Assembly (NCBI GenBank): GCA_001793855.1
Contig: MGIR01000001.1
Span: forward strand, 8,645 to 72,644
Reading direction: 5' to 3'
Source: Candidatus Wolfebacteria bacterium RIFCSPLOWO2_01_FULL_45_19
Lineage (GTDB): Bacteria; Patescibacteriota; Minisyncoccia; UBA6257; GWB1-45-9
DNA length: 64,000 bases
Part shown: positions 13,846 to 63,141 of the stretch, piece after piece
Position numbering within the stretch: the first letter of the stretch is position 1
How the letters are laid out: each line of letters starts with the position of its first letter
The notes under the pieces: generated by a model
What the model saw: the letters and a program-made list of their open reading frames with translations, nothing else
Databases searched by the model: none
What the model was told of the DNA's origin: nothing
Made by a program: the position numbers and the translations under genes

Positions 13846-13857
13846 AACTTAAAAACA

Positions 13858-13895
13858 GTTCTTGGGTTCTTCAGTTCTTACGTTCTTTAGTTCTC
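13858..13895. repeat. tandem gttcttNN octamer array (single arm) in the rplQ-rplM spacer
   Basis: gttcttgggttcttcagttcttacgttctttagttctc. Confidence 0.6.
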
Positions 13896-14245
13896 TATAC
13901 AAACTCTATAATCGCCATCTTAGCAGAATCTCTCTTTCTTCGCTTCATTCCTTTGATAATCCTGAGATATCCCCCTTTTCTGTCGACGTAACGCGGGGCT
14001 ATTTCATAATATAACTTCTGCGCCGACTGTTTCGGAAGACGCGAAAGCAAAAGCCGAAAGCTGGCCATAGTTTGCTTTTTAGCCAACGTCAGAAGTTTTT
14101 CCATTTTCGGCCTTAGTTCTTTGGCGCGCGGCTCCGTAGTTTCAATGTTCTCACGCATTATAAGATTGTTCAAAAGCCCCTTTAAGAACGCTCGCCTTTG
14201 TCCCCTTTCTCTTCCGAATTTTCTGCCCTTTTTTCCGTGCCTCAT
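13895..14245 (-). CDS. rplQ: 50S ribosomal protein L17
   Basis: MRHGKKGRKFGR start. Confidence 0.9.
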   Translation of the reverse strand: MRHGKKGRKFGRERGQRRAFLKGLLNNLIMRENIETTEPRAKELRPKMEKLLTLAKKQTMASFRLLLSRLPKQSAQKLYYEIAPRYVDRKGGYLRIIKGMKRRKRDSAKMAIIEFV

Positions 14246-15027
14246 TATTTTTTCTTAGCGGTTTTCTTTGATTTCGCTTTTTTCTCCGGCTTGTCCGCCA
14301 TAACCTTGACGTCGGCGGACTCGGCTGCCTTCATAACCTCTACCGCGGATACTTTTTCAAAATGGTCCTTCAGAATATTGCTCGCCTTATGAAGAGCGGA
14401 AGATGGAGCGATAGTTCCGTCAGTGACTATATGGAAACGCACGCGATTGTAGTCAGTGCGATCTCCGATTCGCATATTTTCCACTTCAAAATTAACTTTA
14501 ATAACCGGCGAAAAGGCGGCGTCCAAAGCTATAGCGCCTATCGGCAGCTTTTCGCTCTTTCTCGCTTCGGACGGAACATACCCCAAGCCCTTTTCAACCG
14601 TTAATTCGGCTTCAAATTCCGCGTTTTTGGCGGTAAGCGTGGCAAGCAAAACTTCGGGCGTTACAAGTTCAATCTGCGCGTTTGTTTTTATATCGGAAGC
14701 ATAAATTTTTTTCTCTCCCTTAACTTTAACAGTCAAAGCCTGCGGTTCATCGGTGTACATTTTGAAGCGCAATTTTTTGAAATTAAGCGAAATCGTTACC
14801 GCGTCTTCGAGAACGTTTTCCATCGCGGTAAATTCATGCCCGATTCCCTTAATCTTAATCTGAGTGACCGCCGCTCCCGGCAAAGAAGAATATAAGACGC
14901 GCCGAAGAGCGTTGCCCATAGTAATGCCATAGCCACTGTAAAGGCCTTCTATTTCAAAAACGCCTTCTTTTTCGTTTTCCGAAACGGTTTTAATCGCCAC
15001 TGTTTCGCTTAAATATTGGTATTTCAT
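14245..15027 (-). CDS. rpoA: RNA polymerase alpha subunit, N-terminal domain only with Lys-rich tail
   Basis: The alpha N-terminal domain is recognisable. The 260 aa protein ends in KPEKKAKSKKTAKKK and has no recognisable alpha C-terminal domain. Confidence 0.8.
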   Translation of the reverse strand: MKYQYLSETVAIKTVSENEKEGVFEIEGLYSGYGITMGNALRRVLYSSLPGAAVTQIKIKGIGHEFTAMENVLEDAVTISLNFKKLRFKMYTDEPQALTVKVKGEKKIYASDIKTNAQIELVTPEVLLATLTAKNAEFEAELTVEKGLGYVPSEARKSEKLPIGAIALDAAFSPVIKVNFEVENMRIGDRTDYNRVRFHIVTDGTIAPSSALHKASNILKDHFEKVSAVEVMKAAESADVKVMADKPEKKAKSKKTAKKK

Positions 15028-18982: not shown

Positions 18983-20275
18983 TTATTTAAACTTCTCTAT
19001 TTCTTCCTCTTCTCCAAATATAGCCAATCCAGCCGGCGGACCGGCCTTGCGGCTTTCAACGCGTTTCAGATGCGGGGCGATAAGAACGAATTGTGTCGGC
19101 GGATGAAAAATAGTCGCGAGACATTCCGTGTTCAACACGAAAGGAATAGAGTGAAAATTCCAATACAGCCAATGCGAAGTGATCACGCGCCCCATAAATG
19201 TCTCCGGTGGAGTTTCTCTGCGCCGATAATTATAAAGAAAGCGCTGTTTACGATACATTATTCTTTTTTTCGCAAAAACATAGGGCCATGCGAACCGCTT
19301 AATCACAGTACTCGCGCTGTAATTCGGGCGAAACGAGTTAAGATTCAGCGCGGAATACTGGTTAAACGCGCCCATCACTCCGCGCCTGGCAAAGGCATCG
19401 AAAAAAATATCTTTTGGCGCGATATAAAGCAATCTTACTACGGCAGCAAAAGCCGACTTTGAAAGATTGTTTTCCACCTCCTCGAGCACAAACGTTTCGC
19501 CGGGAGTCCGCATCACTTTCGCGAAATCCATAGCTCCGGATGGAGCGCTTTTAGCCGCGCCTTTGGTTGCCGATTCTTTTAATTTCGCGATGGTGCCCCT
19601 GTATTTGTCCGCCCAATCCGGTCCGCTCGGAGTTATCAAAATCTGTATGCCGACAAATTCTCCTTTTTTAACTTTGCTTAAAAGTTCAATAAAAGTGGAC
19701 ATCGGGTCAAATTCTTTTTCTTCGGCTGGCGATTCAAATTTGAGATATGTTTTTATCGGATACGCGGATTCTTTTATCAATGCCAATTCCGTCCCCCAAA
19801 TACTCAACTCTCTTTCTTCCATTTCGCGCAAATTAACCGGGATCTGATTGGCGTAATCGTCAACCTCCGAAACTTCAACGTCGGGATAATAAGAAAAAAA
19901 CGCGGCTTCAACCAAACCACGGTATCGCGCGTAGGTTCTTACAAAAAAACGCACTTCGCCCCCTAAGCTGACCATTTCCAAAGAAAAAGGCCTCGTGACT
20001 TCGCCGTCTATGTATTCGTCTTTTAAATTGGCCGGAGAATTGCGGAGCGAATGAATAGCCGCCAAAACCTGCTCCATGGCCCTTACACCTTTTTTTATTT
20101 CACGCGGCATCCTTAATTCCAAAACCGCCCACTCGTTTTCGCTCTTAAACAATTCCTGCCTCCAAAAAAGCCATGCCGACCTAAAAATCGGCAAAAGTAC
20201 GATGGGAATAAAAAACCACCAAGTGGCTTTTATAAAATTCTGTGTTAGTTGTAGAATTAGAAAAAGCGGCTCCAC
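18983..20275 (-). CDS. hypothetical membrane-anchored protein
   Basis: N-terminal TM, 430 aa, no recognised motif. Confidence 0.4.
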   Translation of the reverse strand: MEPLFLILQLTQNFIKATWWFFIPIVLLPIFRSAWLFWRQELFKSENEWAVLELRMPREIKKGVRAMEQVLAAIHSLRNSPANLKDEYIDGEVTRPFSLEMVSLGGEVRFFVRTYARYRGLVEAAFFSYYPDVEVSEVDDYANQIPVNLREMEERELSIWGTELALIKESAYPIKTYLKFESPAEEKEFDPMSTFIELLSKVKKGEFVGIQILITPSGPDWADKYRGTIAKLKESATKGAAKSAPSGAMDFAKVMRTPGETFVLEEVENNLSKSAFAAVVRLLYIAPKDIFFDAFARRGVMGAFNQYSALNLNSFRPNYSASTVIKRFAWPYVFAKKRIMYRKQRFLYNYRRRETPPETFMGRVITSHWLYWNFHSIPFVLNTECLATIFHPPTQFVLIAPHLKRVESRKAGPPAGLAIFGEEEEIEKFK

Positions 20276-22581: not shown

Positions 22582-23787
22582 TTAGTAGTAAGTGTAAGTG
22601 GTATAACTTGAATAAGCGCTCCAAGTGCACAACCCGGCGTTCAGAGGAGAGCTAGTATTAGTAGCTTTTCTGGAACCGCCTCCGTAGGGATAACAACTTC
22701 CATCAAACGGCCAGCCATTGGCGTCGGAAGTAGGAACCGTGCCATTTTGAGCGTATAAAGACACTCCAGGACTACTGCAAGCATAAGTAAGATTTGTGCA
22801 GGTCGCGTCACTCATATAACAGTTGAAGCCATTCGTAACTCCGTTCCACGAAACCATCCAAAAGCTAACCGTGTCGGCGCCGGACTGGCAACTACTGGGG
22901 GTCGGCGGGGTACAACTATATGACGCTCCCGGAGTAGCAGTTGATGCACCATTTGCACATTGTCCCAAGAAATTATAGCCTGTGCCAGTAGTGTAATTAT
23001 CCCAATATCTGTTGCAATCCTCATCAATGAGAGGCGTTGCCGAACCGGACCCTCCTACTGCCGAACAAGTCGCATTTTGCGAGAACGCCGCGACTGACGC
23101 GCTGTCCGAAATCCGTTGCAGTCTGATTTGCAGTCCGGTTGCATTCCAAGTCGTTGCGGTAAAGTTATCGCCATTCAATTGAGCGGCCGCGTTGGTCGTG
23201 TTGGCATCGCAATTGTAAGTGGCATAGCTTAAGTCAGTCCATACTGAACCGGTGTAATACTGCAACCGACAGCCGCCCACCCCTCCGTTGCCTGTGCCGG
23301 CAGTCCAGCTGACGGTGAAGTCCCTGCGCCTGACCGTCTGAGTTAAGACAAGCGAAGTCGGCGGAGAAGAGGCGCCCCAAACACAAGAAGTCGCGCCGTC
23401 GCTGGTTTTAACCCAGCCGGTTCCGTTGCAGGCGCAGGTCGTGTAACCTGCAGTCATAGCCAACGATTTGCTTGTTGAAGCGTCACAAGTAAAAGGACTG
23501 GAAGAGTTTATTGGAAATTTTAACGCTCCTGTCGCCTCAATAATCCCGTTAATCGTGAGCTTGCTTGCCGGAGAAACTGTGCCGATGCCGACATTGCCGG
23601 TTCCGGGGTCAAATACTAAACCAGCGGTGCTTGTCGCGTTGCCTACCCGAAACCCGCCGCTCACGTCAAAAGTGTACTCCGGCGTTATTCCGATGCCGAT
23701 GTTTCCGCTACTGAACTTAAGGTTTCCACCGCCGATGCCTGGGCTTAAACTGGCGGGGCCGGTGAATCCGAGCGCGACAAAAACCAA
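22582..23787 (-). CDS. Cys/Thr/Gly-rich secreted or surface protein
   Basis: N-terminal hydrophobic segment. GTGNVGIGT repeats and many Cys. Confidence 0.55.
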   Translation of the reverse strand: MVFVALGFTGPASLSPGIGGGNLKFSSGNIGIGITPEYTFDVSGGFRVGNATSTAGLVFDPGTGNVGIGTVSPASKLTINGIIEATGALKFPINSSSPFTCDASTSKSLAMTAGYTTCACNGTGWVKTSDGATSCVWGASSPPTSLVLTQTVRRRDFTVSWTAGTGNGGVGGCRLQYYTGSVWTDLSYATYNCDANTTNAAAQLNGDNFTATTWNATGLQIRLQRISDSASVAAFSQNATCSAVGGSGSATPLIDEDCNRYWDNYTTGTGYNFLGQCANGASTATPGASYSCTPPTPSSCQSGADTVSFWMVSWNGVTNGFNCYMSDATCTNLTYACSSPGVSLYAQNGTVPTSDANGWPFDGSCYPYGGGSRKATNTSSPLNAGLCTWSAYSSYTTYTYY

Positions 23788-23863
23788 GAAACCGGAAACT
23801 AAGATACTTATTGATATTAATAGATATTTATTGATATTCGTGAATCCAGATTAATTTGTTTGC

Positions 23864-24331
23864 TCACCAGACGCATGCCGTTATGCCGTCGCTGGTTTTA
23901 ACCCAGCCGGTCCCGTTGCAGGCGCAGGTCGTGTAACCTGAAGTCAATGACAATGAGCCGGCATTTGAAGCGTTACAGGTAAAAGGAGCCGATGCGTTAG
24001 CCACCAATTTGAATCCCCCCAAAGTGGATTCAATAATCCCGTTGATCATGAGCTTGCTTGCCGGAGAAACGGTGCCGATGCCGACATTGCCGGTTCCGGG
24101 GTCAAATACTAAACCAGCGGTGCTTGTCGCGTTGCCTACCCGAAATCCGCCGCTCACGTCAAAAGTATATAAAGGCGTTATTCCTAAGCCGGTGTTTCCG
24201 CCAGAAGTTACAAAAAACCCAGAGCCAGTTCCCGGAGAAACCGAAGGGCCTGTAAATCCCAACACAACCGATACAAAGATGCCGGCGGATACTATTATAC
24301 CTGCGGATATCAACAGATATTTATTGATCAT
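23864..24331 (-). CDS. truncated paralogue of the 22582-23787 gene (tandem partial duplication)
   Basis: About 95% nucleotide identity over ~450 bp with 23390-23790. It diverges after TSDG. Confidence 0.5.
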   Translation of the reverse strand: MINKYLLISAGIIVSAGIFVSVVLGFTGPSVSPGTGSGFFVTSGGNTGLGITPLYTFDVSGGFRVGNATSTAGLVFDPGTGNVGIGTVSPASKLMINGIIESTLGGFKLVANASAPFTCNASNAGSLSLTSGYTTCACNGTGWVKTSDGITACVW

Positions 24332-31340: not shown

Positions 31341-31712
31341 TTACTTCATATAATCTTTGATTCTGACAACAAGCTCGTCTATGGAGGTTTTCGCTTTGAC
31401 GAAATACTCAATCGCGCCCAATTCCTTGCCGGTCTGAATGTCGGATTCTTGTCCAAGGTTTGAAATTATAACAATCTGGCTTTGGCTTAACTGCGGGTCA
31501 CTGCGAATCGCTTCAAGAACTTCAAATCCGGATTTTTTGGGCAAAATTATATCAAGCAGGACGAGGTCGGGTTTTTGGTCGCGCAAAAACTTCAGCGCTT
31601 CTTCGCCGTCAGGAGCGTGAATCACGGTGAAGTTTTCTTTTTGCAAACGCGTCTTCAAAAGAGACGACAAGAACACGTCGTCTTCCACAAGCAAGATGGT
31701 TTTCCCATTCAT
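31341..31712 (-). CDS. single-domain response regulator (CheY-like receiver)
   Basis: LLVEDD ... DLVLLDIILP ... receiver motifs, with no output domain. Confidence 0.8.
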   Translation of the reverse strand: MNGKTILLVEDDVFLSSLLKTRLQKENFTVIHAPDGEEALKFLRDQKPDLVLLDIILPKKSGFEVLEAIRSDPQLSQSQIVIISNLGQESDIQTGKELGAIEYFVKAKTSIDELVVRIKDYMK

Positions 31713-31994
31713 GATTTATATTATAGCAAAACTTTTCTCGTTGTCCCAAGAGTCGAGACTTGATGGCTCATCGACTAATACCATCCCGCCGAAGCGGGGT
31801 CGACACTAGTTTTCATTATTGAAAACTAAGTTTAATTAATCCACGCACAGCTTCCGCTACGCGTGCCTTGTTACGACTTCGTCCGTGTCACCGAACTTAC
31901 CCTAACCCCGCAAAACGGAGTTTTAGGTATTCCCGGCTTCCTTGACGTGACGGGCGGTGAGTACAGGACTCGAGAACGTATTCACCGCGGCATA

Positions 31995-32029
<35 letters not shown>

Positions 32030-32193
32030 AGGGCGAGTTGCAGCCCTCAATCCGAACTTGGGCCGGTTTTAAGGGATTAGCTCCACCTTACGGTTTGGCA
32101 ACCCTTTGTACCGGTCATTGTAGCACGAGTGTAGCCCAGGGCATCAGAGGGCCATGCGGATTTGACGTCGTCCCCTCCTTCCTCCCAGCACTT

Positions 32194-32359
32194 TGTTCGC
32201 AAACGAACAAAGCAATTTCTAAACTCTAATATCTAAATCCTAAACAAATTTTAAAAATCAAATCTCAAATTCGAAACGTTTGGAACATTTGAATTTGGAA
32301 TTTTGAGATTGTTTAGAGATTAGGATTTCGAATTTAGGATTTCTTTGCGCTTGTGCGCA
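32194..32359. repeat. ~165 nt palindromic heptamer-repeat element forming an expansion in the 16S h40 loop
   Basis: Closed by CAGCACTT/AAGTGCTG. The arms tctaaactctaatatctaaatcctaaac / gtttagagattaggatttcgaatttaggattt match the element at 21795. Confidence 0.7.
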
Positions 32360-32725
32360 AAGTGCTGGGCAGTTTTGCCTGACACGTATAACAGACAATA
32401 GGGGTTGCGCTCGTTTCCCCACTTAAGGGAACGTCTCACGATACGAGCTGACGACAACCATGCAGCACCTGTCCTGACGTCCTTGAGAGACAACACGCCT
32501 TTCAGCATGTCTTCGTCAAGATTTCTAGCCCTGGTAAGGTTCCTCGTTTAGTATCGAATTAAACCTCATGCTCCACCGCTTGTGCGAGTCCCCGTCTATT
32601 CCTTTGAGTTTTAAGCTTGCGCTCGTACTTCCCAGGCGGCCTGCTTAACGCGTTAGCTTCGCCACTCCGAGGGTCGATACTCGAAACAGCCAGCAGGCAT
32701 CGTTTAGGGCGTGGACTACAAGGGT

Positions 32726-33856
32726 TGAATTTGTTACTTCGCGACAATAGTATTATTGTCACGCGAGCCGAACATTTCTGTCGGCTTCTCTATGTTGCCA
32801 TAGAGTCCGGACTATATCTTTATCTGAAAGCCGTCCATCGAGCCAGTTTCTTCTCGTATTCGGATAAAATAACCGAACGAGGAAAGCGGCTCAAACTTAC
32901 AACCTCAGATATCCAGCGTTCTTGAAATTGAGAATCTTTATAGAGAAGTATTGCTTTGCGCAACATGTCCGGCGTTGGTATATGCGGCAGAATGATGCGA
33001 AGAAACTTTTTTAATTCCTCCTGCGATCTGATCCATATCCGCCAATATTGCCGCCGCTCTCCTTTATAGATACGGGATATGGGAGATACGATATTTTTTA
33101 TATCCCATACTACTTTAAGGTAGCGAGATAGTATTTTGACAGATTCTTTGTCAAAGCCATCGGTACAAAATACTCCCTTTCTTCCTCCGTAACTAATAAG
33201 TGAGCCATCATCACACCACCATACGGCGAGCGATAACGGGGTCATTCGGTTCAGCCAAGTGCGTCTAATGCGCAATCGGTTATTTTTATACGTTAAGCGA
33301 TGCAATTCAGTTAACGCTGGCAGATTTCTGCTTATAAACCGCCACTTGCTGTTTACGCTGAAACCGTCGGCCCTTTGGACACTAATACTTTTCTCTCGCG
33401 CTATCTCTTGAAGCATATCTGCTTTCCATAAGAGATAATCTTTTTGTGTTTCCGAATGACGAATTTGTAAATTCGCATTGGCACATTTTTTTTGAATCTT
33501 CAACGAACCGTCTCCTAGGATTGTTCCTAAAATAACGGCTCGCGCTTGATCCGACAAAGGCACATACTTTTTATCATTTTGCATATTATTATTTTATACG
33601 CTCATGACATAATGCGCCAACTATCTTAACTCAATTTCATAGTCTCTACGGGGTCAAACAAAATGAAATTTGAACTTTCAATTTTGCATTCTGTCGACTT
33701 CCCTCGGGATTGTCCGTCCGACAGGACGGAGTTCCCCGATACAGCTAGATGCTCACCCCGACGTCGCCGTCGAGGGGGACACCTTTGACAACCCCGATTT
33801 ACATCGGGGCTCTTTGTTTCTACGGGCAAAAGGAAAACCCTCCACAAAGATTTCGT
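32726..33856 (-). mobile_element. group I intron in 16S (near E. coli position ~790) carrying a homing endonuclease ORF; boundaries approximate
   Basis: It interrupts GGATTAGATA | CCCTTGTAGTCC. P7 elements GTAGAGACTATG (R) and AAGATATAGTCC (S) are present. Confidence 0.75.
32820..33584 (-). CDS. LAGLIDADG homing endonuclease (double-motif)
   Basis: ILGDGSL and WCDDGSL motifs. Confidence 0.8.
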   Translation of the reverse strand: MQNDKKYVPLSDQARAVILGTILGDGSLKIQKKCANANLQIRHSETQKDYLLWKADMLQEIAREKSISVQRADGFSVNSKWRFISRNLPALTELHRLTYKNNRLRIRRTWLNRMTPLSLAVWWCDDGSLISYGGRKGVFCTDGFDKESVKILSRYLKVVWDIKNIVSPISRIYKGERRQYWRIWIRSQEELKKFLRIILPHIPTPDMLRKAILLYKDSQFQERWISEVVSLSRFPRSVILSEYEKKLARWTAFR

Positions 33857-34457
33857 ATCTAATCCTTTTTGCTCCCCACGCTTTCGTGTCTCAGAGTCAG
33901 GAACGTCCCAGCCAGCTGCCTTCGCCTTTGGTGTTCCGCACGATATCAACGGATTTCACCCCTACACCGTGCGTTCCACTGGCCTCTGACGTCCTCTAGT
34001 TCGGCCGTATCTCTTGCAGCCTCAGGGTTGAGCCCCGAGATTTAACAAAAGACGCACCGAACATCCTACACACGCTTTACGCCCAATAAATCCGGATAAC
34101 GCTTGAGGTCTACGTTTTACCGCTGGTGCTGGCACGTAGTTACCCACCTCTTTCCACAGGGTACCGTCAACCTCGCGCGTAGCGCGAGAACCGAAAAACA
34201 CATGAACGTAAAAACGTAAGAACAAGTTGTTCTTTGGTTTATAGGTTCTTTAGTTTTTTAGTTCTTGTGCTACGCACAAGGCTTCTTCCCCTGCTATCGC
34301 GGTTTACGACCCGAAGGCCTTCTTCCCGCACGCGGCGTCGCTCGATCAGGCTTTCGCCCATTGTCGAATATTCTCGACTGCTGCCTCCCGTAGGAGTATG
34401 CACCGTGTCTCAGTTGCATCGTCGGGGAACAGGCTCTCACCCCCCCTACCGGTCATA

Positions 34458-34492
<35 letters not shown>

Positions 34493-34817
34493 CAGACCTA
34501 AGCCACTCCTGAAGCGATTTGCATCTTTACTCCGACACCCTTGCGGGGTCGGAGATTATTTGGAATTACCTCGTCTTTCGACGAGCTATGCCAAACTTCA
34601 GGGTATGTACTAAGGCGTTACTGACTCGTTCGCCACTGCCTCGCGCCTTGCGCGAGAACAAAAAAACGAAAGAACAAAAGAACTTAAGAACAAAAAGTTC
34701 TTGGGTTCATAAGTTCATGGGTTTTTTAGTCCTTGTGCAAAACACAAGGCCGTTCGACTTGCATGCCTTATCCACGCCGCCAGCGTTCATCCTGGACCAG
34801 GATCAAATCCTCAATAA

Positions 34818-34892
34818 GAGCTTTCAGCTTTTAGCTTATAGCTTATAGAAGGTAACCCCCCTAACAGCTAACAGCTATCAGCTAACAGCTCG
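34818..34892. repeat. agctNNN heptamer palindrome immediately upstream of the 16S 5' end
   Basis: agcttttagcttatagcttatag ... ctaacagctaacagctatcagctaacagct. Confidence 0.6.
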
Positions 34893-38315: not shown

Positions 38316-38390
38316 GGCCGAGTAGCCAAGTGGTAAGGCAGGGGACTGCAAATCCCTTACACGAGGGTTCGATTCCCTCCTCGGCCTCCA
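38316..38390 (+). tRNA. tRNA-Cys (anticodon GCA), CCA encoded
   Basis: Acceptor GGCCGAG/CTCGGCC, anticodon loop CTGCAAA. Confidence 0.8.
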
Positions 38391-38391
38391 A

Positions 38392-38479
38392 GCCCGGGTG
38401 GCGGAATGGTATACGCAAAGGACTTAAAATCCTTGGCTCCTAACGGGGCTTGTGGGTTCGACTCCCACCTCGGGCACCA
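38392..38479 (+). tRNA. tRNA-Leu (anticodon TAA), long variable arm, CCA encoded
   Basis: Anticodon arm AAGGACTTAAAATCCTT; T-loop TTCGACT. Confidence 0.8.
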
Positions 38480-38749
38480 CGTTGGAAAAGTCAAATCGGC
38501 TGGGGCTTCGCGGCCTTCGGCCGCGACCAAATCGTAAGGATTTTTCGGGGCAAAAAGAAATTCCCGATTCCCTTAAAAGCAGAAAAGAAAAATTTTCAAA
38601 TACTCCCAAGAGGCGGCACTTGCCGCCTCTTGACTTTTGTGGTCTAAAATGCTAGACTTGAGCATTATCGGAATCATAGTTAACCGATAATCTGTGACCG
38701 TAGCGGTTGCAGAAAGCACATTCCGAAACAAACACGAAAGGAGGTTCAT

Positions 38750-39139
38750 ATGAGTCTTGAACAGAACAAGACGTTCGCGTCTGAACTCGAAGCCGAGCTG
38801 CGGGAAGCTGGTCTCCCGTCCGACCCGAGTCAAATCGTTGGCCATCTCTATTGGTTTGGGTGTGAACATGGTTCGCACCATCACATTCTCTCCGGAACGA
38901 TTCAGGCCATCGAGGTTTCCGACGAGGGAGGTCTCGACCTCTACATCACAAATCCTCGTTTCTGGGGCGAGCGGCTCATTAGCATCAAGTACAGCAACAA
39001 GTGGATGGCCTACGTGGACGTCAAGCCTCGTGAGTGGAGCGACGAGGCACTGGAGCGAATGTCCGAAGAAGAGCACGAGCGCGCGATCCAAGAAGACATC
39101 GCGGCCAAGTTCTTCGAGGGCGAGTTCCAACTTCTCTAG
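38750..39139 (+). CDS. hypothetical acidic protein in a GC-rich islet, with a canonical Shine-Dalgarno
   Basis: AAGGAGG sits 7 nt upstream of the ATG, ~58% GC, with its own terminator. The antisense 223 aa ORF is not preferred. Confidence 0.45.
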   Translation: MSLEQNKTFASELEAELREAGLPSDPSQIVGHLYWFGCEHGSHHHILSGTIQAIEVSDEGGLDLYITNPRFWGERLISIKYSNKWMAYVDVKPREWSDEALERMSEEEHERAIQEDIAAKFFEGEFQLL

Positions 39140-39164
39140 TCGCGCATGCCTCCCACTAACATCG

Positions 39165-39201
39165 AAAGCGGTATGGTTCGCCCTGCCGCTTTTCTCTTTT
39201 T
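39165..39201 (+). terminator. rho-independent terminator
   Basis: AAAGCGG...CCGCTTTTCTCTTTTT. Confidence 0.55.
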
Positions 39202-39467
39202 CAATTTTTGATTTAAGAATTTTCATAAAAGAATTTGCCGCCAATCAACACATTTTTTAATAACTTTTAAATTGAAAAAATGTACTGAAATGAGTTATTA
39301 TTAACTCATTAGAAAAACTTGAAATTGTCATTCGTGCGGCTCCGCCGCCTTTCCGAATTTTCGCGGGCCTTCGCCTCGCCGAAGTGGCTTCGGCCACGCA
39401 GGCGGGGGGAATTTTCCGGAAAAATGTGTTTGGACTAATTCAAGAATACTGCACCACGTAAAATACA

Positions 39468-41031: not shown

Positions 41032-41115
41032 ATAAAGCCGCAGATAATGGGCAGGGAATACCCAAGAGTCCCGTTGAGGCGTATGGCGGCTTTGGGTCGT
41101 TTTTTTATTTGCATT
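41032..41115 (+). promoter_or_regulatory. L10 (rplJ) leader with attenuator-like hairpin
   Basis: AAAGCCGC...GCGGCTTT helix followed by a U-run; position typical of the L10 autoregulatory leader. Confidence 0.45.
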
Positions 41116-41610
41116 ATGCTCACGAGAAAACAAAAAGAAGAATCGGTTAAACATGGCAAAGAGCTTTTACAAAAGAGCCGAAATTTGATTTTGGTTGATT
41201 TTAGCCGCGCGCCCGCGGAAGCGATGCGGCGATTGCGCCGGGTGATTAAAGACAAGCAATCCCAGCTTAAAGTTATAAAAAAGCGTTTACTTGGCTTGGT
41301 TTTAAAAGCAGCAGGCGCTGATTTTGATTCGGCGAAATTCAAGACATCGGTCGGGGCGGTATTTGTTTCTGGAGAGATAACTGACGTTGCCGGAGATTTA
41401 TATAAATTCAGCAAAGAAAACGAAGGCTTCAAAATGCTTGGCGGGTACAATCTTCAAACCAAAGAATTTGTTAGTGACGAATTGCTTAATCGCATAGGGC
41501 AATTGCCGTCGCGTGAGGTTTTGCTTGCTCAGCTTTTGGGAATGTTTACCGCGCCAATGAGGAAATTCCTTATTGTGTTAAACGAGAAAGGCAAAAAGGT
41601 CGTAGCATAA
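41116..41610 (+). CDS. rplJ: 50S ribosomal protein L10
   Basis: Similarity from MLTRKQKEE onward. Confidence 0.85.
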
Positions 41611-41620
41611 TAGATTTAAG

Positions 41621-41980
41621 ATGGAAAAGTACAACGATTTAATTTCAAAGTTGGAGGGAATGAGCGTTGTTGAGCTTGCCGATTTGGTTAAGGCGCTTGA
41701 AGAAAAGTGGGGAGTTTCCGCCGCTATGGTTGCCGCCCCTTCGGCTGGCTTAGGGCAAGCGGAAGAAAAAACGGAATTTGACGTGATTTTAAAAGCTGCG
41801 GGCGAACAGAAAATAAACGCCATTAAGGCAGTACGCGAAATTACCGGTCTCGGACTTAAGGAGGCAAAGGACCTGGTTGACGGCGCGCCAAAGACGGTTA
41901 AACAGAGCGTAAAAAAAGAGGAAGCTGAAGAGATAAAGAAAAAACTGGAGGCCGCCGGCGCGACCGCGGAGGTGCAATAA
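41621..41980 (+). CDS. rplL: 50S ribosomal protein L7/L12
   Basis: Characteristic N-terminal domain, Ala-rich hinge, and C-terminal domain. Confidence 0.9.
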
Positions 41981-46865: not shown

Positions 46866-46945
46866 AAACTAAAGAACATAAGAACATAAGAACGTAAGAA
46901 CGGTTTTGAGTTCATCAGTTCATTCGTTCATAAGTTTTTAAGTTA
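46866..46945. repeat. aagaac/gttctt octamer palindrome
   Basis: ctaaagaacataagaacataagaacgtaagaac ... gttcatcagttcattcgttcataagtt. Confidence 0.7.
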
Positions 46946-46953
46946 TACAAGAT

Positions 46954-48189
46954 ATGAAAGAGGCAATAATTAAAATTTTGCAGTATATATTAAAGAAGCT
47001 TGCTCAGCTGACTGTCTGGCGATATGAGCCGGGCGTTATTGTGATTACGGGTAATGTAGGCAAGACATCGACTAAAGAAACCATAGCCGCGGTGTTGCGA
47101 AACGGCCGTAATATACGTTATTCCAGCGGAAATTTTAATAACGAGCTTGGCGTACCTCTTACGATAATAGGCGACTGGGACAAAATAAGCGGGTGGTTTT
47201 TTTGGCCAAGAGTTTTAATAATGGCTGTTTTTCAGCTTATTTTTAAAAACGGAAATTATCCGGAATTGTTGATTCTTGAATACGCGGCGGGCAAGCCCGG
47301 AGACATAAAATATCTTTTAGAGATAGCGCGGCCCCAGATAGGCGTTATTACCGCGATAGGAGAAATTCCCGCGCACGTGGAATTTTTTAGCGGTTCCGAC
47401 GCCGTAGCAAGGGAAAAATCGCGCGTAGTGGAACATTTGCCATCCAACGGTTTCGCGGTTTTAAATTTTGACGATGAAGTTGTAATGGATATGAAAGAGC
47501 GGACGCGGGCGCATGTCATAACTTTCGGTTTCGGGGAGGGAGCGGAAGTAAGAATAACAAATTTTGAAATTCGCTCCGAAAACGGCAGGCCGGACGGCAT
47601 ATGGTTCAAATTGGTTTACGGCGGAAATGTCGTTCCGTTTAACTTGAAAGGAGTTTTCGGAAAACCGCAGGCGTATGCCACGGCGGCTGCGGCGGCGGTG
47701 GGAATTGTTTTCGGAGCAAACCTCGTTAAATCGGCCGAAGCCCTTGCCGGCTACCGCCCGATTAAAGGAAGAATGAGCTTGCTTCCGGCAATCAAAATGG
47801 CTTACATTATTGACGACAGTTACAACGCCGCGCCGCTTTCAATGCGTTCAGCGCTTGACACATTGAAAGCTCTTAAGGTCTCCGGAAGAAAAATAGCGGT
47901 TCTCGGTGATATGCTTGAAATAGGCAGATACGCGCTTGAGGCGCATGAAGAGATCGGGCGAATGGCGGCAAAGACGGCGGATTTTCTGATTACGGTCGGG
48001 CCGCGGGCAAAATTTATCGCCGAACACGCCGTAAGGCACGGTTTGTCGAAAAGGCGAGTGATGTCGTTTGATGTTGTTGAAGACGCCATCAAACCGGCGC
48101 AGGATATGATTAGGAAGGGTGACGTTGTATTGGTTAAAGCGTCCAGAGCAATTCAGTTGGATAAATTAGTGAAAGCTCTTATCGTCTAG
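46954..48189 (+). CDS. murF: Mur ligase family protein (probable UDP-MurNAc-tripeptide--D-Ala-D-Ala ligase)
   Basis: ITGNVGKTSTKE ATP-binding motif. Position after ftsI. Confidence 0.6.
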   Translation: MKEAIIKILQYILKKLAQLTVWRYEPGVIVITGNVGKTSTKETIAAVLRNGRNIRYSSGNFNNELGVPLTIIGDWDKISGWFFWPRVLIMAVFQLIFKNGNYPELLILEYAAGKPGDIKYLLEIARPQIGVITAIGEIPAHVEFFSGSDAVAREKSRVVEHLPSNGFAVLNFDDEVVMDMKERTRAHVITFGFGEGAEVRITNFEIRSENGRPDGIWFKLVYGGNVVPFNLKGVFGKPQAYATAAAAAVGIVFGANLVKSAEALAGYRPIKGRMSLLPAIKMAYIIDDSYNAAPLSMRSALDTLKALKVSGRKIAVLGDMLEIGRYALEAHEEIGRMAAKTADFLITVGPRAKFIAEHAVRHGLSKRRVMSFDVVEDAIKPAQDMIRKGDVVLVKASRAIQLDKLVKALIV

Positions 48190-61945: not shown

Positions 61946-62409
61946 AGTTGGAAAAAATAGTTGTTAACGTCGGGGTAGGGCGATTGAGTCAGGCGCCTAA
62001 TTTTTCGGATAAAATTCTTCCGGAAATTGATAAAGAACTTGCTTTAATCACGGGCCAGAAGCCGTCTCCGCGCGGCGCGAAACAATCTATAGCCGGTTTT
62101 AAAATTCGCGCCGGAAATGTTGTTGGACTGAAAGTTACTTTGCGTGGTAAAAGAATGCGCGATTTCTTGAGCCGTTTGGTGAATATAGCTCTACCGCGAG
62201 TAAGAGATTTCAGGGGCGTTGACTTGAAAAATGTGGACAAATCCGGTAATCTTAGCATCGGCTTTCGTGAACACTCCGTTTTTCCGGAAATAAATCTTGA
62301 AACCAGCCGGGTCAATTTCGGATTGGAGGTAACATTGGTGCCGAAGATTCGTATTAGAGAGAAGGCGATTGAAGCATATCGGCAATTGGGAGTGCCGTTC
62401 AAAAAATAA
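61918..62409 (+). CDS. rplE: 50S ribosomal protein L5
   Basis: Conserved sequence. Confidence 0.9.
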   Translation: MQKMQSDNLKLEKIVVNVGVGRLSQAPNFSDKILPEIDKELALITGQKPSPRGAKQSIAGFKIRAGNVVGLKVTLRGKRMRDFLSRLVNIALPRVRDFRGVDLKNVDKSGNLSIGFREHSVFPEINLETSRVNFGLEVTLVPKIRIREKAIEAYRQLGVPFKK

Positions 62410-62500
62410 ACTAAAGAATTAAAGAACCAAAGAACGGAAGAGTAAAGAACGGTTTATGAGTTCTTAAGTTCATAAGTTCTCAAGTTAAACAAATTAAACA
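62410..62500. repeat. aagaac/gttctt octamer palindrome
   Basis: ctaaagaattaaagaaccaaagaacggaagagtaaagaac ... gttcttaagttcataagttctcaagtt. Confidence 0.7.
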
Positions 62501-62502
62501 AA

Positions 62503-62688
62503 ATGGCTAAAACATCGGTAATCGCAAGAGCGAAAAAAAAGCCCAAATATTCAACTCGCATAGTACGGCGATGTTTTCGCTGTGGACGTAAGCGCGGTTA
62601 TATGAGGGATTTCGGGCTTTGTCGCATTTGTTTTCGTGAAATGGCAAGCAGGGGCGAAATACCGGGAGTAAAAAAAGCATCATGGTAA
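62503..62688 (+). CDS. rpsN: 30S ribosomal protein S14 type Z (zinc-binding)
   Basis: CFRCGR...CRICFRE. Confidence 0.9.
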
Positions 62689-63062
62689 CAGATTTATTAA
62701 CGAGAATTAAAAACGCTCAGGCGGTAAAGCATGAACGGGTAAAGCTTCCATACAGCAAAATGAATGAGACAGTCGCTCATTTGCTCTTGAAGCACAAATA
62801 TGTTGCCGGAGTGGTAAAAAAAGGAAGAATGCCAAAACGTATGTTGGAGGTGGAGTTGAAGTATGAAAACGGCTCTGGCGTCATCAGGGGCATAAAATTT
62901 GTAAGCAAACCATCGCGTAGAATTTACGCCGGTTACCGTGATTTAAAATCCGTCAAACAAGGTTACGGCATGCTTATGATTTCTACACCGGAAGGTTTGA
63001 TGAGCGGCTCGGAAGCAAGAAAGAAGAAATTGGGCGGAGAATTATTGTTTGAGATATGGTAA
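62682..63062 (+). CDS. rpsH: 30S ribosomal protein S8
   Basis: Conserved sequence. Confidence 0.9.
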
Positions 63063-63133
63063 ATAATTAAAAACCAAAGAACTAAGGAACGCAAGAATGG
63101 TTTTAAGTTCATTCGTTCATAAGTTTTTAAGTC
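63063..63133. repeat. aagaac/gttctt octamer palindrome
   Basis: aaccaaagaactaaggaacgcaagaatgg ... gttcattcgttcataagtttttaagt. Confidence 0.7.
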
Positions 63134-63141
63134 ATCTAAAC

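What the first reader, a model, noticed from the sequence alone, without database searches (positions are those of the whole stretch)
31825..31845. 16S 3' end appears to lack the anti-Shine-Dalgarno CCUCC; genes lack SD motifs, except one ORF in a GC-rich islet
After the conserved AAGUCGUAACAAGG, the sequence runs ...GUGCGUGGAUUAAUUAAAC instead of GGAUCACCUCCUU. No CCUCC occurs in the next ~130 nt. Upstream regions of rpsL, fusA, tuf, rplJ and others show no GGAGG-like motif.

The 38750-39139 ORF is the exception. It has a perfect AAGGAGG 7 nt upstream of its ATG and sits in a ~58% GC islet next to tRNA-Cys/tRNA-Leu. That fits recent horizontal acquisition from an SD-using donor.
Basis: inference. 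Interest (0 to 1): 0.6.

Follow-up and report, generated by a model that had tools for sequence, protein, structure and literature searches.

The report
Parcubacterial 16S without anti-Shine-Dalgarno tail
This groundwater candidate-phyla-radiation bacterium really has a 16S rRNA without the anti-Shine-Dalgarno sequence and genes without Shine-Dalgarno sites, a lineage-wide trait already published for Parcubacteria; the one gene that does carry a Shine-Dalgarno site sits in a small foreign-looking cassette inserted next to a tRNA gene.

Summary
The 16S gene lies on the minus strand (31829-34818). After an intact helix 45, its tail reads GAU-UAAUUAAACU where bacteria normally have GAU-CACCUCCUUU. 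No CCUCC occurs for about 440 nt downstream.

Pairing of gene upstream regions to the canonical anti-SD is weaker than inside genes: mean -1.9 kcal/mol here against -5.1 to -7.2 in an E. coli control. The rewritten tail pairs with upstream regions no better than shuffled tails, so there is no replacement SD.

Fifteen other Parcubacteria genomes carry similar tails (GGAU-YAAUUMAAY). Tsurumaki et al. 2022 already reported anti-SD loss in a Parcubacteria subgroup, so the main point is known.

The exception, ORF 38750-39139, is real. It encodes a conserved 129-aa protein of unknown function with AAAGGAGG 5 nt (not 7) before ATG. Its GC is 55% and its GC3 is 4.3 sd above the other window genes.

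The ORF belongs to a 0.7-1 kb cassette with its own promoter-like site, structured leader and a terminator-like hairpin. The cassette starts right after tRNA genes of different identity in unrelated genomic contexts.

All 12 distinct copies I looked at keep an SD-like motif. Horizontal mobility is supported. 'Recent' and 'from an SD-using donor' remain inference.

The parts
31829..34818 (-). 16S rRNA gene, 2990 nt for a 1533-position model. It carries large insertions and is not followed by a 23S gene within the window.
   Evidence: Rfam RF00177, 1261 bits, model positions 1-1533.
31842..31865 (-). Helix 45 (CACGCGUAGC-GGAA-GCUGUGCGUG), intact.
   Evidence: All pairs are standard in the covariance-model alignment.
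31829..31841 (-). 16S 3' tail GAUUAAUUAAACU, occupying the positions of GAUCACCUCCUUU. There is no anti-SD core.
   Evidence: Covariance-model alignment. No CCTCC until 31387. Related tails in 15 other genomes.
31804..31830 (-). Hairpin directly after or overlapping the end of the tail (CUUAGUUUUC-AAUAAU-GAAAACUAG). It is followed by a GUCGA box that recurs downstream of relatives' 16S genes. Probably pre-rRNA processing or termination structure.
   Evidence: Read from the sequence. Its role is inferred.
32724..33855 (-). 1132-nt insertion in the 16S gene at about model position 784. It holds a LAGLIDADG endonuclease ORF (32820-33584) and a sub-threshold group I intron match (32788-33049).
   Evidence: insertion; Intron_gpI 30.9 bits, E=1.3e-5. 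(PF03161, 1.6e-35).
31341..31712 (-). Response-regulator gene 117 nt after the 16S gene. TATAAT (31725-31720) ends 7 nt before its ATG, so it is a candidate leaderless mRNA.
   Evidence: PF00072. Sequence. Hexamer-distance count.
38392..38479 (+). tRNA-Leu(taa). The cassette begins right after its CCA end. tRNA-Cys lies at 38316-38390.
   Evidence: ARAGORN. Boundary alignment.
38486..39215 (+). Core of the SD-bearing cassette shared with other genomes. Homology to L134 and L135 extends to about 39460.
   Evidence: blastn 81-86% identity to L133-L137, with flanks that do not align. Alignments A3 and A4.
38630..38658 (+). Promoter-like TTGACT-17-TAGACT with TG upstream. It is preceded by the hairpin 38607-38632.
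   Evidence: Consensus scan. The -35 hexamer and the hairpin are conserved in L134-L136.
38664..38712 (+). Two conserved hairpins in the roughly 90-nt 5' leader.
   Evidence: RNAalifold on 4 copies. Pairs are kept through one-sided changes and one two-sided change.
38737..38744 (+). AAAGGAGG Shine-Dalgarno-like motif, 5 nt before the ATG.
   Evidence: Duplex energy -12.3 kcal/mol. All 12 distinct family copies have an SD-like motif; 11 are at -8.3 or lower and L136 is at -5.6.
39165..39205 (+). Terminator-like hairpin plus T-run after ORF129, conserved in all aligned copies.
   Evidence: Inverted repeat I9. Alignment A4. The consensus terminator scan did not list it.

Best explanation
Source organism. 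The window comes from a groundwater Parcubacteria (candidate phyla radiation) genome. Its S7 protein is identical to one recorded for Candidatus Wolfebacteria bacterium RIFCSPLOWO2_01_FULL_45_19.

The 16S tail. The 16S rRNA has an inherited, rewritten 3' tail. The C residues of CACCUCCUU have been replaced by A or U (UAAUUAAAC), so no anti-SD:SD helix can form.

How translation starts. Initiation must be SD-independent, and three features of the window fit that:
- Leaders are A/U-rich and G-poor.
- Many stop/start overlaps within operons allow translational coupling.
- A few promoters place a -10 box 6-7 nt before the start codon, which suggests leaderless mRNAs.
The new tail is not a new anti-SD.

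The one SD-bearing gene. It belongs to a 0.7-1 kb self-contained cassette with a promoter-like site, a structured leader, an SD motif, the ORF and a terminator-like hairpin. The cassette lies immediately after tRNA genes and moves horizontally among Patescibacteria, including lineages that keep the anti-SD. In this host its SD has no rRNA partner.

Shown: tail sequence, SD absence, lineage distribution, cassette boundaries and composition.
Inferred: mature 3' end, initiation mode, direction and timing of transfer.
For: - Tail and helix 45. No CCUCC downstream.
- SD depletion with an E. coli positive control.
- Relatives with independently called genes also lack SD (pooled mean -2.05; 22% at -4.5 or below).
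- The native tail pairs worse than 97% of shuffled tails.
- 15 of 120 genomes sharing this helix-45 type have non-canonical tails, all from Parcubacteria-type records (Jorgensenbacteria, Minisyncoccia, Paceibacteria, Ryanbacteria). Magasanik-, Uhr- and Falkowbacteria keep CACCUCCUU.
- Published precedent: PMC9297842 and PMC6107228.
- Upstream composition is A 40%, G 17%. TATAAT-like hexamers 5-12 nt before starts number 13, against about 2.8 expected from the window-wide rate; upstream regions are AT-rich, so this overstates the excess.
- Cassette.
Against: - The mature 16S 3' end is not mapped.
- Only 64 kb of the genome is seen, so a second 16S copy cannot be excluded here.
- Gene starts come from a crude longest-ORF caller.
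- The cassette has no integrase and no tRNA-derived direct repeat, so the mobility mechanism is unknown.
- If the SD is useless in this host, its conservation in all 12 copies, including copies with SD-less neighbours, is not explained by this account.
- The tails of relatives share a consensus (YAAUUMAAY). This hints at some retained constraint that I cannot name.
Confidence: 0.85

Rival explanations
1. The rewritten tail is a new anti-SD. AU-rich motifs upstream of genes pair with UUAAUUAAAC, making a co-evolved alternative SD:anti-SD pair.
For: The tail is semi-conserved among relatives and upstream regions are A/U-rich. The ladder repeat GUUCAUAAGUUUUUAAGU contains UAAGUUU, which is complementary to AAACUUA at the tail/trailer junction.
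Against: Mean duplex energy of the native tail with 69 upstream regions is -1.22. Upstream regions pair no better than inside-gene controls (-1.14). 97% of shuffled tails pair better. AAACUUA is not conserved in relatives' trailers. Amin et al. found no compensating SD in 128 anti-SD-less taxa.
Confidence: 0.04
2. Artefact or pseudogene. The tail is an assembly or sequencing error or a decayed rRNA copy, and a functional 16S with CCUCC exists elsewhere or further downstream after processing.
For: The gene is unusual: 2990 nt, insertions, and unlinked from 23S.
Against: All 1533 model positions are matched, with conserved cores and helix 45. Fifteen independent assemblies show the same type of tail. 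The genes themselves lack SD motifs. No CCUCC occurs in 440 nt, and a protein gene starts 117 nt downstream.
Confidence: 0.03
3. The GGAGG before ORF129 is kept by selection in anti-SD-less hosts for a reason other than pairing with 16S. Examples are a leader RNA switch (UUCC:GGAG helix) or a protein-binding site. On this view the cassette is a resident, regulated gene rather than a recent import.
For: All 12 distinct copies keep the motif at 5-9 nt from the ATG down to 46% protein identity. Neighbours in 7 loci lack SD. The leader is more conserved than the coding sequence among close copies. RNAalifold predicts a 4-bp UUCC:GGAG/GGAA helix that survives the GGAG to GGAA change in L136.
Against: The helix has only 4 pairs and the evidence is one one-sided change. 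More distant copies have unrelated leaders. Gene GC3 stays far above host values, which fits repeated import better than long residence. Only for this window is the host's 16S tail actually known.
Confidence: 0.2
4. The GC-rich islet is a structured non-coding RNA (such as RNase P, tmRNA or a riboswitch) and the ORF is spurious.
For: GC-rich islets in AT-richer genomes are often RNA genes, and this one lies next to tRNAs.
Against: No Rfam family matches even at E<=1. There are 36 protein homologues with E down to 1e-81, invariant residues and indels in multiples of three. The AlphaFold2 model is confident, with pLDDT 89.5.
Confidence: 0.01

Closest known systems
Parcubacteria subgroup lacking the anti-SD motif (Tsurumaki et al. 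2022, RNA 28:1041, PMC9297842)
   Same: Same phylum-level group, and the same trait. CCTCCT was detected in only 48% of Parcubacteria 16S genes, with the loss concentrated in one subgroup. The paper also describes insertion-bearing rRNAs and shortened r-proteins. In this window uL3 is only 140 aa.
   Different: In the passages read, the paper reports only a motif-detection rate. The replacement tail consensus, the SD statistics, the test for a compensating motif and the SD-bearing cassette are added here.
Anti-SD-less taxa of Lim et al. 2012 and Amin et al. 2018 (PMC6107228): some Flavobacteriia (Chryseobacterium, Blattabacterium), Mycoplasma, Carsonella, Hodgkinia
   Same: Intact helix 45 followed by a tail without CCUCC. 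No SD enrichment, no compensating motif, and the trait is clustered by phylogeny.
   Different: A different phylum. The organism is a free-living or episymbiotic groundwater CPR bacterium rather than an insect endosymbiont or a Bacteroidota member.
Bacteroidia SD-blind ribosomes with a sequestered anti-SD and an SD-bearing rpsU (PMC7797042, PMC13000453)
   Same: Genome-wide absence of SD with one or a few conspicuous SD-bearing genes. Leaders are A-rich.
   Different: Bacteroidia keep the canonical anti-SD and use it for bS21 autoregulation. Here the anti-SD is absent, and the SD-bearing gene is an accessory protein of unknown function.
tRNA-targeted genomic islets and integrative elements
   Same: Insertion exactly at tRNA 3' ends, use of different tRNA genes, atypical composition and non-syntenic flanks.
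   Different: Only 0.7-1 kb in size. No integrase was detected and there is no tRNA-derived direct repeat. No phage or plasmid relatives were found.

Membership tests
Bacteria whose 16S rRNA lacks the anti-SD | Recognisable helix 45 followed by a tail of about 13 nt without CCUCC | tested here: met
   Covariance-model alignment: GAUcACCUCCUUu against GAUUAAUUAAACU. No CCTCC for about 440 nt.
Bacteria whose 16S rRNA lacks the anti-SD | No SD enrichment upstream of genes | tested here: met
   Window mean -1.91, against -5.10 and -7.24 in E. coli with the same method; p=1.8e-9 on the r-protein/EF gene sets.
Bacteria whose 16S rRNA lacks the anti-SD | No upstream motif complementary to the variant tail | tested here: met
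   The native tail pairs worse than 97% of 200 shuffled tails.
Bacteria whose 16S rRNA lacks the anti-SD | Trait shared by relatives, so not a sequencing error | tested here: met
   15 further genomes have GGAU-YAAUUMAAY-type tails. Relatives' genes are also SD-poor.
Parcubacteria anti-SD-less subgroup (Tsurumaki 2022) | Reported overlap with absence of ribosomal protein uL1 | not testable with these tools
   No rplK-rplA region lies in the window. rplJ-rplL (41047-41980; named from the precomputed Pfam hits) is preceded by yqeY. The rest of the genome was not fetched.
Parcubacteria anti-SD-less subgroup (Tsurumaki 2022) | Parcubacteria affiliation | tested here: met
   The S7 protein is 100% identical to one from Ca. 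Wolfebacteria RIFCSPLOWO2_01_FULL_45_19. The next hits are Parcubacteria, Minisyncoccia and Harrisonbacteria.
Bacteroidia-type SD-blind ribosome | Canonical anti-SD retained but sequestered | tested here: not met
   The anti-SD is absent from the gene.
tRNA-integrating mobile element | Insertion at the 3' end of a tRNA gene, in different tRNAs in different genomes | tested here: met
   Found after Leu-taa (window), Leu-caa (L134, L135) and Lys-ttt (L136). Homology starts right after the CCA end in these. L139's copy lies about 170 nt after Arg-tct, but its boundary was not aligned.
tRNA-integrating mobile element | Integrase gene and att direct repeats | tested here: not met
   ORF129 is the only conserved ORF in the shared block. 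No tRNA-derived direct repeat was found.
Leaderless mRNAs | Transcription start at or within a few nt of the start codon | not testable with these tools
   The evidence is only indirect. A perfect TATAAT ends 6-7 nt before the start codons at 20275, 31279 and 31712. 5'-end mapping is needed.
CPR 16S rRNA genes with insertions encoding homing endonucleases | Large insertion in a conserved 16S region carrying a LAGLIDADG ORF | tested here: met
   A 1132-nt insertion at about model position 784. PF03161, 1.6e-35.

The most novel reading that the evidence does not exclude
The ORF129 family keeps a canonical Shine-Dalgarno motif under selection inside genomes whose ribosomes have no anti-SD. GGAGG would then act through a route other than the 16S tail, for example a leader RNA switch or a protein-binding site. 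On this reading the tRNA-adjacent cassette is a new kind of integrase-less mobile unit in CPR bacteria.
Probability: 0.15. Interest if true: 0.6.

Novelty: already known. Interest (0 to 1): 0.3.

Why it matters
Loss of the anti-SD shows that a large and abundant bacterial radiation starts translation without the textbook mRNA-rRNA pairing. That affects gene calling in CPR genomes, because start prediction that relies on ribosome-binding-site models will mislead. It also affects heterologous expression of CPR genes and ideas on how initiation evolves in reduced genomes.

The main fact is already published.

This check adds four things:
- The replacement tail has a shared consensus in related genomes but is not a new anti-SD.
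- SD disuse is also seen in relatives.
- Canonical-tail Patescibacteria may also be SD-poor. This rests on weak evidence from a crude gene caller.
- One mobile cassette keeps an SD-like motif in all 12 copies, a concrete test case for whether an SD can matter without an anti-SD.

Tried and rejected
- Anti-SD further downstream or after an insertion: none within about 440 nt, and a protein gene starts 117 nt after the 16S gene.
- Alternative SD complementary to the new tail: rejected by the shuffle test.
- GC islet as a non-coding RNA: no Rfam match at E<=1, and the protein family is clearly conserved.
- Phage or plasmid origin of ORF129: no tblastn match in the phage or plasmid collections, none in IMG/VR, and no PHROGs family.
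- att-type direct repeats of the tRNA 3' end: none.
- First positive control for the SD test: Actinomycetota loci from the pattern scan showed no SD signal with the crude longest-ORF caller in high-GC DNA. I replaced it with an annotated E. coli region.
The 15 of 120 figure is therefore a sample, not a census.
- Ladder palindromes as conserved initiation elements: they are not positionally conserved. Relatives have 2-8 nt rpsL|rpsG spacers.
- The sRNA-like unit between rpsJ and rplC: no Rfam family.

Full report
WHAT IS AT THE COORDINATES

The window carries one bacterial 16S rRNA gene, on the minus strand at 31829-34818 (RF00177, 1261 bits, all 1533 model positions). The finding's coordinates, 31825-31845, are its 3' end.

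Read on the minus strand, the sequence is ...GAAGUCGUAACAAGG-CACGCGUAGC-GGAA-GCUGUGCGUG-GAU-UAAUUAAACU. The covariance model aligns helix 45 with every pair standard. It places GAUUAAUUAAACU against the consensus GAUcACCUCCUUu. All five bases of the CCUCC core are replaced by A or U.

The next CCTCC on that strand is at 31387, about 440 nt away and inside a response-regulator ORF at 31341-31712. That ORF starts only 117 nt after the 16S gene. An anti-SD 'further downstream' is therefore excluded at the DNA level.

A hairpin (31804-31830) and a GUCGA box follow the tail. The GUCGA box recurs downstream of relatives' 16S genes. These probably belong to pre-rRNA processing. The mature end itself was not mapped.

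DO THE GENES LACK SD SITES?

I called 69 ORFs and corrected several starts by hand or by Pfam. For each I computed the best duplex between the 20 nt upstream of the start and ACCUCCUUA.

- Window, all 69 genes: mean -1.91 kcal/mol, with 16% at -4.5 or below.
- Random 20-mers inside the same genes: mean -2.90, with 24%. Upstream regions pair less well than coding sequence.
- E. coli K-12, 49 kb, same crude pipeline: mean -5.10, with 64%.
- E. coli annotated r-protein and elongation-factor genes: mean -7.24, with 97%.
- The window's r-protein/EF/rpoA set: mean -1.51, with 15% (Mann-Whitney p=1.8e-9).

Four relatives with independently called genes (L145-L148, S7 identity 72-85%) give a pooled mean of -2.05, with 22% at -4.5 or below.

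Upstream regions are A-rich and G-poor: A 40%, T 29%, G 17%, C 14%. SD absence is confirmed.

IS THE NEW TAIL A NEW ANTI-SD?

No. Pairing of GAUUAAUUAAACU with the 69 upstream regions averages -1.22. That is the same as inside genes (-1.14), and 97% of 200 shuffled tails pair better.

WHOSE GENOME IS THIS, AND IS THE TRAIT INHERITED?

The S7 protein is identical to one recorded for Candidatus Wolfebacteria bacterium RIFCSPLOWO2_01_FULL_45_19. The next hits are Parcubacteria, Minisyncoccia and Harrisonbacteria. Contigs encoding the window's ORF129 come from groundwater metagenomes.

I scanned one genome per species for this helix-45 type. Fifteen have non-canonical tails. All fifteen have the CACGC/UGCGU or CACGG/YYCGU stem.

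Their records are labelled Jorgensenbacteria, Minisyncoccia, Paceibacteria or Paceibacterota, Parcubacteria, Ryanbacteria or Patescibacteria. A few carry what look like pipeline labels.

The tails read GGAU followed by UAAUUAAAU, CAAUUAAAC, UAAUUCAAU, UAAUUAAUU, CAUUUAAUU and similar, giving the consensus YAAUUMAAY. Ryanbacteria keeps UCUCCU. Magasanik-, Uhr- and Falkowbacteria in the same scan keep CACCUCCUU.

The trait is therefore lineage-wide and the tail is rewritten to a shared AU-rich form rather than randomised. I cannot say what constrains it.

IS THIS KNOWN?

Yes. Tsurumaki et al. (RNA 2022, PMC9297842) state that the CCTCCT motif is found in only 48% of Parcubacteria 16S genes. They say the loss lies in a subgroup that overlaps the uL1-lacking group, and that SD helices probably do not form there.

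Amin et al. 2018 (PMC6107228) list 128 anti-SD-less taxa elsewhere. None of them has a compensating SD. My full-text searches found no other paper on SD use in Parcubacteria.

HOW DOES INITIATION PROBABLY WORK HERE? (INFERENCE)

Three features of the window fit SD-independent initiation:

- Leaders are A/U-rich and G-poor.
- Many adjacent genes overlap stop and start codons. Examples are rplC/rplD, rplW/rplB, rpsS/rplV, rplN/rplX/rplE and rpsN/rpsH (coordinates; the last four names are by operon order, not scanned). This allows translational coupling.
- TATAAT-like hexamers end 5-12 nt before start codons 13 times. About 2.8 are expected from the window-wide rate, an underestimate because upstream regions are AT-rich. 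A perfect TATAAT ends 6-7 nt before the starts at 31712, 31279 and 20275. This suggests some leaderless mRNAs.

A crude analysis of canonical-tail Patescibacteria loci also showed no SD enrichment (mean -0.80). That would fit SD disuse preceding anti-SD loss. The caller is too crude to lean on, and it failed on a high-GC control in the same call.

THE EXCEPTION ORF

ORF 38750-39139 has AAAGGAGG at 38737-38744, with a 5-nt spacer before the ATG.

It is a real gene:
- It has 36 homologues, with E-values down to 1e-81.
- The alignment has invariant SDEG and other positions.
- The AlphaFold2 model is confident, with pLDDT 89.5.

It is compositionally foreign. GC is 55.4%. GC3 is 0.685 against 0.472 +/- 0.049 (z = +4.35). 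Its codon usage is the most atypical of the 69 genes.

It is part of a self-contained unit:
- an upstream hairpin at 38607-38632;
- a promoter-like TTGACT-17-TAGACT;
- a leader of about 90 nt with two conserved hairpins;
- the SD motif and the ORF;
- a terminator-like hairpin plus T-run at 39165-39205.

DNA homology to other contigs (L133-L137, 81-86% identity) begins immediately after the CCA end of a tRNA gene. It ends at about 39215 (L136) or about 39460 (L134, L135). The tRNAs differ: Leu-taa here, Leu-caa in L134 and L135, and Lys-ttt in L136. L139's copy lies about 170 nt after Arg-tct, though its boundary was not aligned. The flanking genes are unrelated.

No integrase and no tRNA-derived direct repeat is present. 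No phage or plasmid relatives exist in the collections searched.

THE UNEXPECTED POINT ABOUT THE CASSETTE

All 12 distinct copies I could read have an SD-like motif 5-9 nt before the conserved ATG. Eleven are at -8.3 to -12.7 kcal/mol and one is at -5.6. One copy counts only after moving the called start to the conserved Met.

In seven of the loci the neighbouring genes lack SD motifs. Gene GC (47-56%) exceeds locus GC (41-48%) in six of those seven loci; in L140 the two are equal at 38%.

Copies also occur in other settings. One is in a 58%-GC contig whose QueA is closest to Uhrbacteria, a group that keeps the canonical tail. Another is in a Doudnabacteria MAG.

The most economical reading is a small gene cassette that spreads horizontally among Patescibacteria from a GC-richer, anti-SD-bearing pool. 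In this host its SD has no partner.

Selection on GGAGG for another purpose is not excluded. RNAalifold predicts a 4-bp UUCC:GGAG helix in the leader that survives the GGAG to GGAA change in L136.

VERDICT

The HGT reading is supported as mobility; it is not demonstrated as recent, nor as coming from an SD-using donor.

Noticed in passing
window 46866-46950, 51468-51552, 54350-54450, 57355-57450, 62405-62490, 63060-63135, 13856-13894; also inside the 16S gene at 34655-34723, 34205-34266, 32214-32321: 'Ladder' palindromes built from 7-8-nt tandem units in inverted orientation, for example (AAGAACNN)4-6 ... (NNGTTCTT)4-5. The six that were folded give 4-6-bp helices separated by symmetric internal loops (dG -14 to -20 kcal/mol, z -2.2 to -6.4). 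The motif occurs 12 times against 0.15 expected. They sit 1-22 nt before start codons of tuf, rpsG, rplW and three downstream genes (a Mur-ligase gene at 46954 and the ORFs at 62503 and 63142, which were not scanned). Similar tandem arrays lie inside the 16S gene. They are not positionally conserved, since relatives have 2-8-nt rpsL|rpsG spacers. However, L146 has a ladder with a different unit, (TAGCTTT)4...(ACTAAAA)5, at the same place before tuf..
   Followed up: partly
window 56020-56215 (+), between rpsJ and rplC: A GC-rich sRNA-like unit with TTGACA-17-TATAAT, a GGAGG at 56066 and a strong terminator-like hairpin plus T-run at 56186-56215. No plausible ORF and no Rfam family at E<=1. Relatives L145 and L146 have only 60-70 nt here, with a hairpin..
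   Followed up: partly
window 32724-33855 (-): A 1132-nt insertion in the 16S gene at about model position 784. It holds a LAGLIDADG homing-endonuclease ORF (32820-33584) and a sub-threshold group I intron match (30.9 bits). There are further insertions of 93, 103 and 133 nt..
   Followed up: partly
window 31341-31829: The 16S gene is not followed by a 23S gene. A response-regulator gene starts 117 nt downstream, so the rRNA genes are unlinked. In the scan, several anti-SD-less relatives also show no 23S downstream, while L101 and L088 do..
   Followed up: partly
window 54132-54320 (+): A small ORF of about 62 aa between fusA and tuf ([39 protein letters not shown]...). It is conserved in L146 (8577-8756). 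Function unknown..
   Followed up: no
window 56310-56732 and 14245-15027: uL3 is only 140 aa and matches only the central part of the Pfam model. RpoA is 260 aa with no C-terminal-domain hit. Both fit the reduced ribosomal and RNA-polymerase proteins reported for CPR bacteria..
   Followed up: no
window 23395-24328: A 493-nt tandem duplication (1.9 copies, 78% identity) spanning the 401-aa and 155-aa ORFs on the minus strand (22582-23787, 23864-24331)..
   Followed up: no
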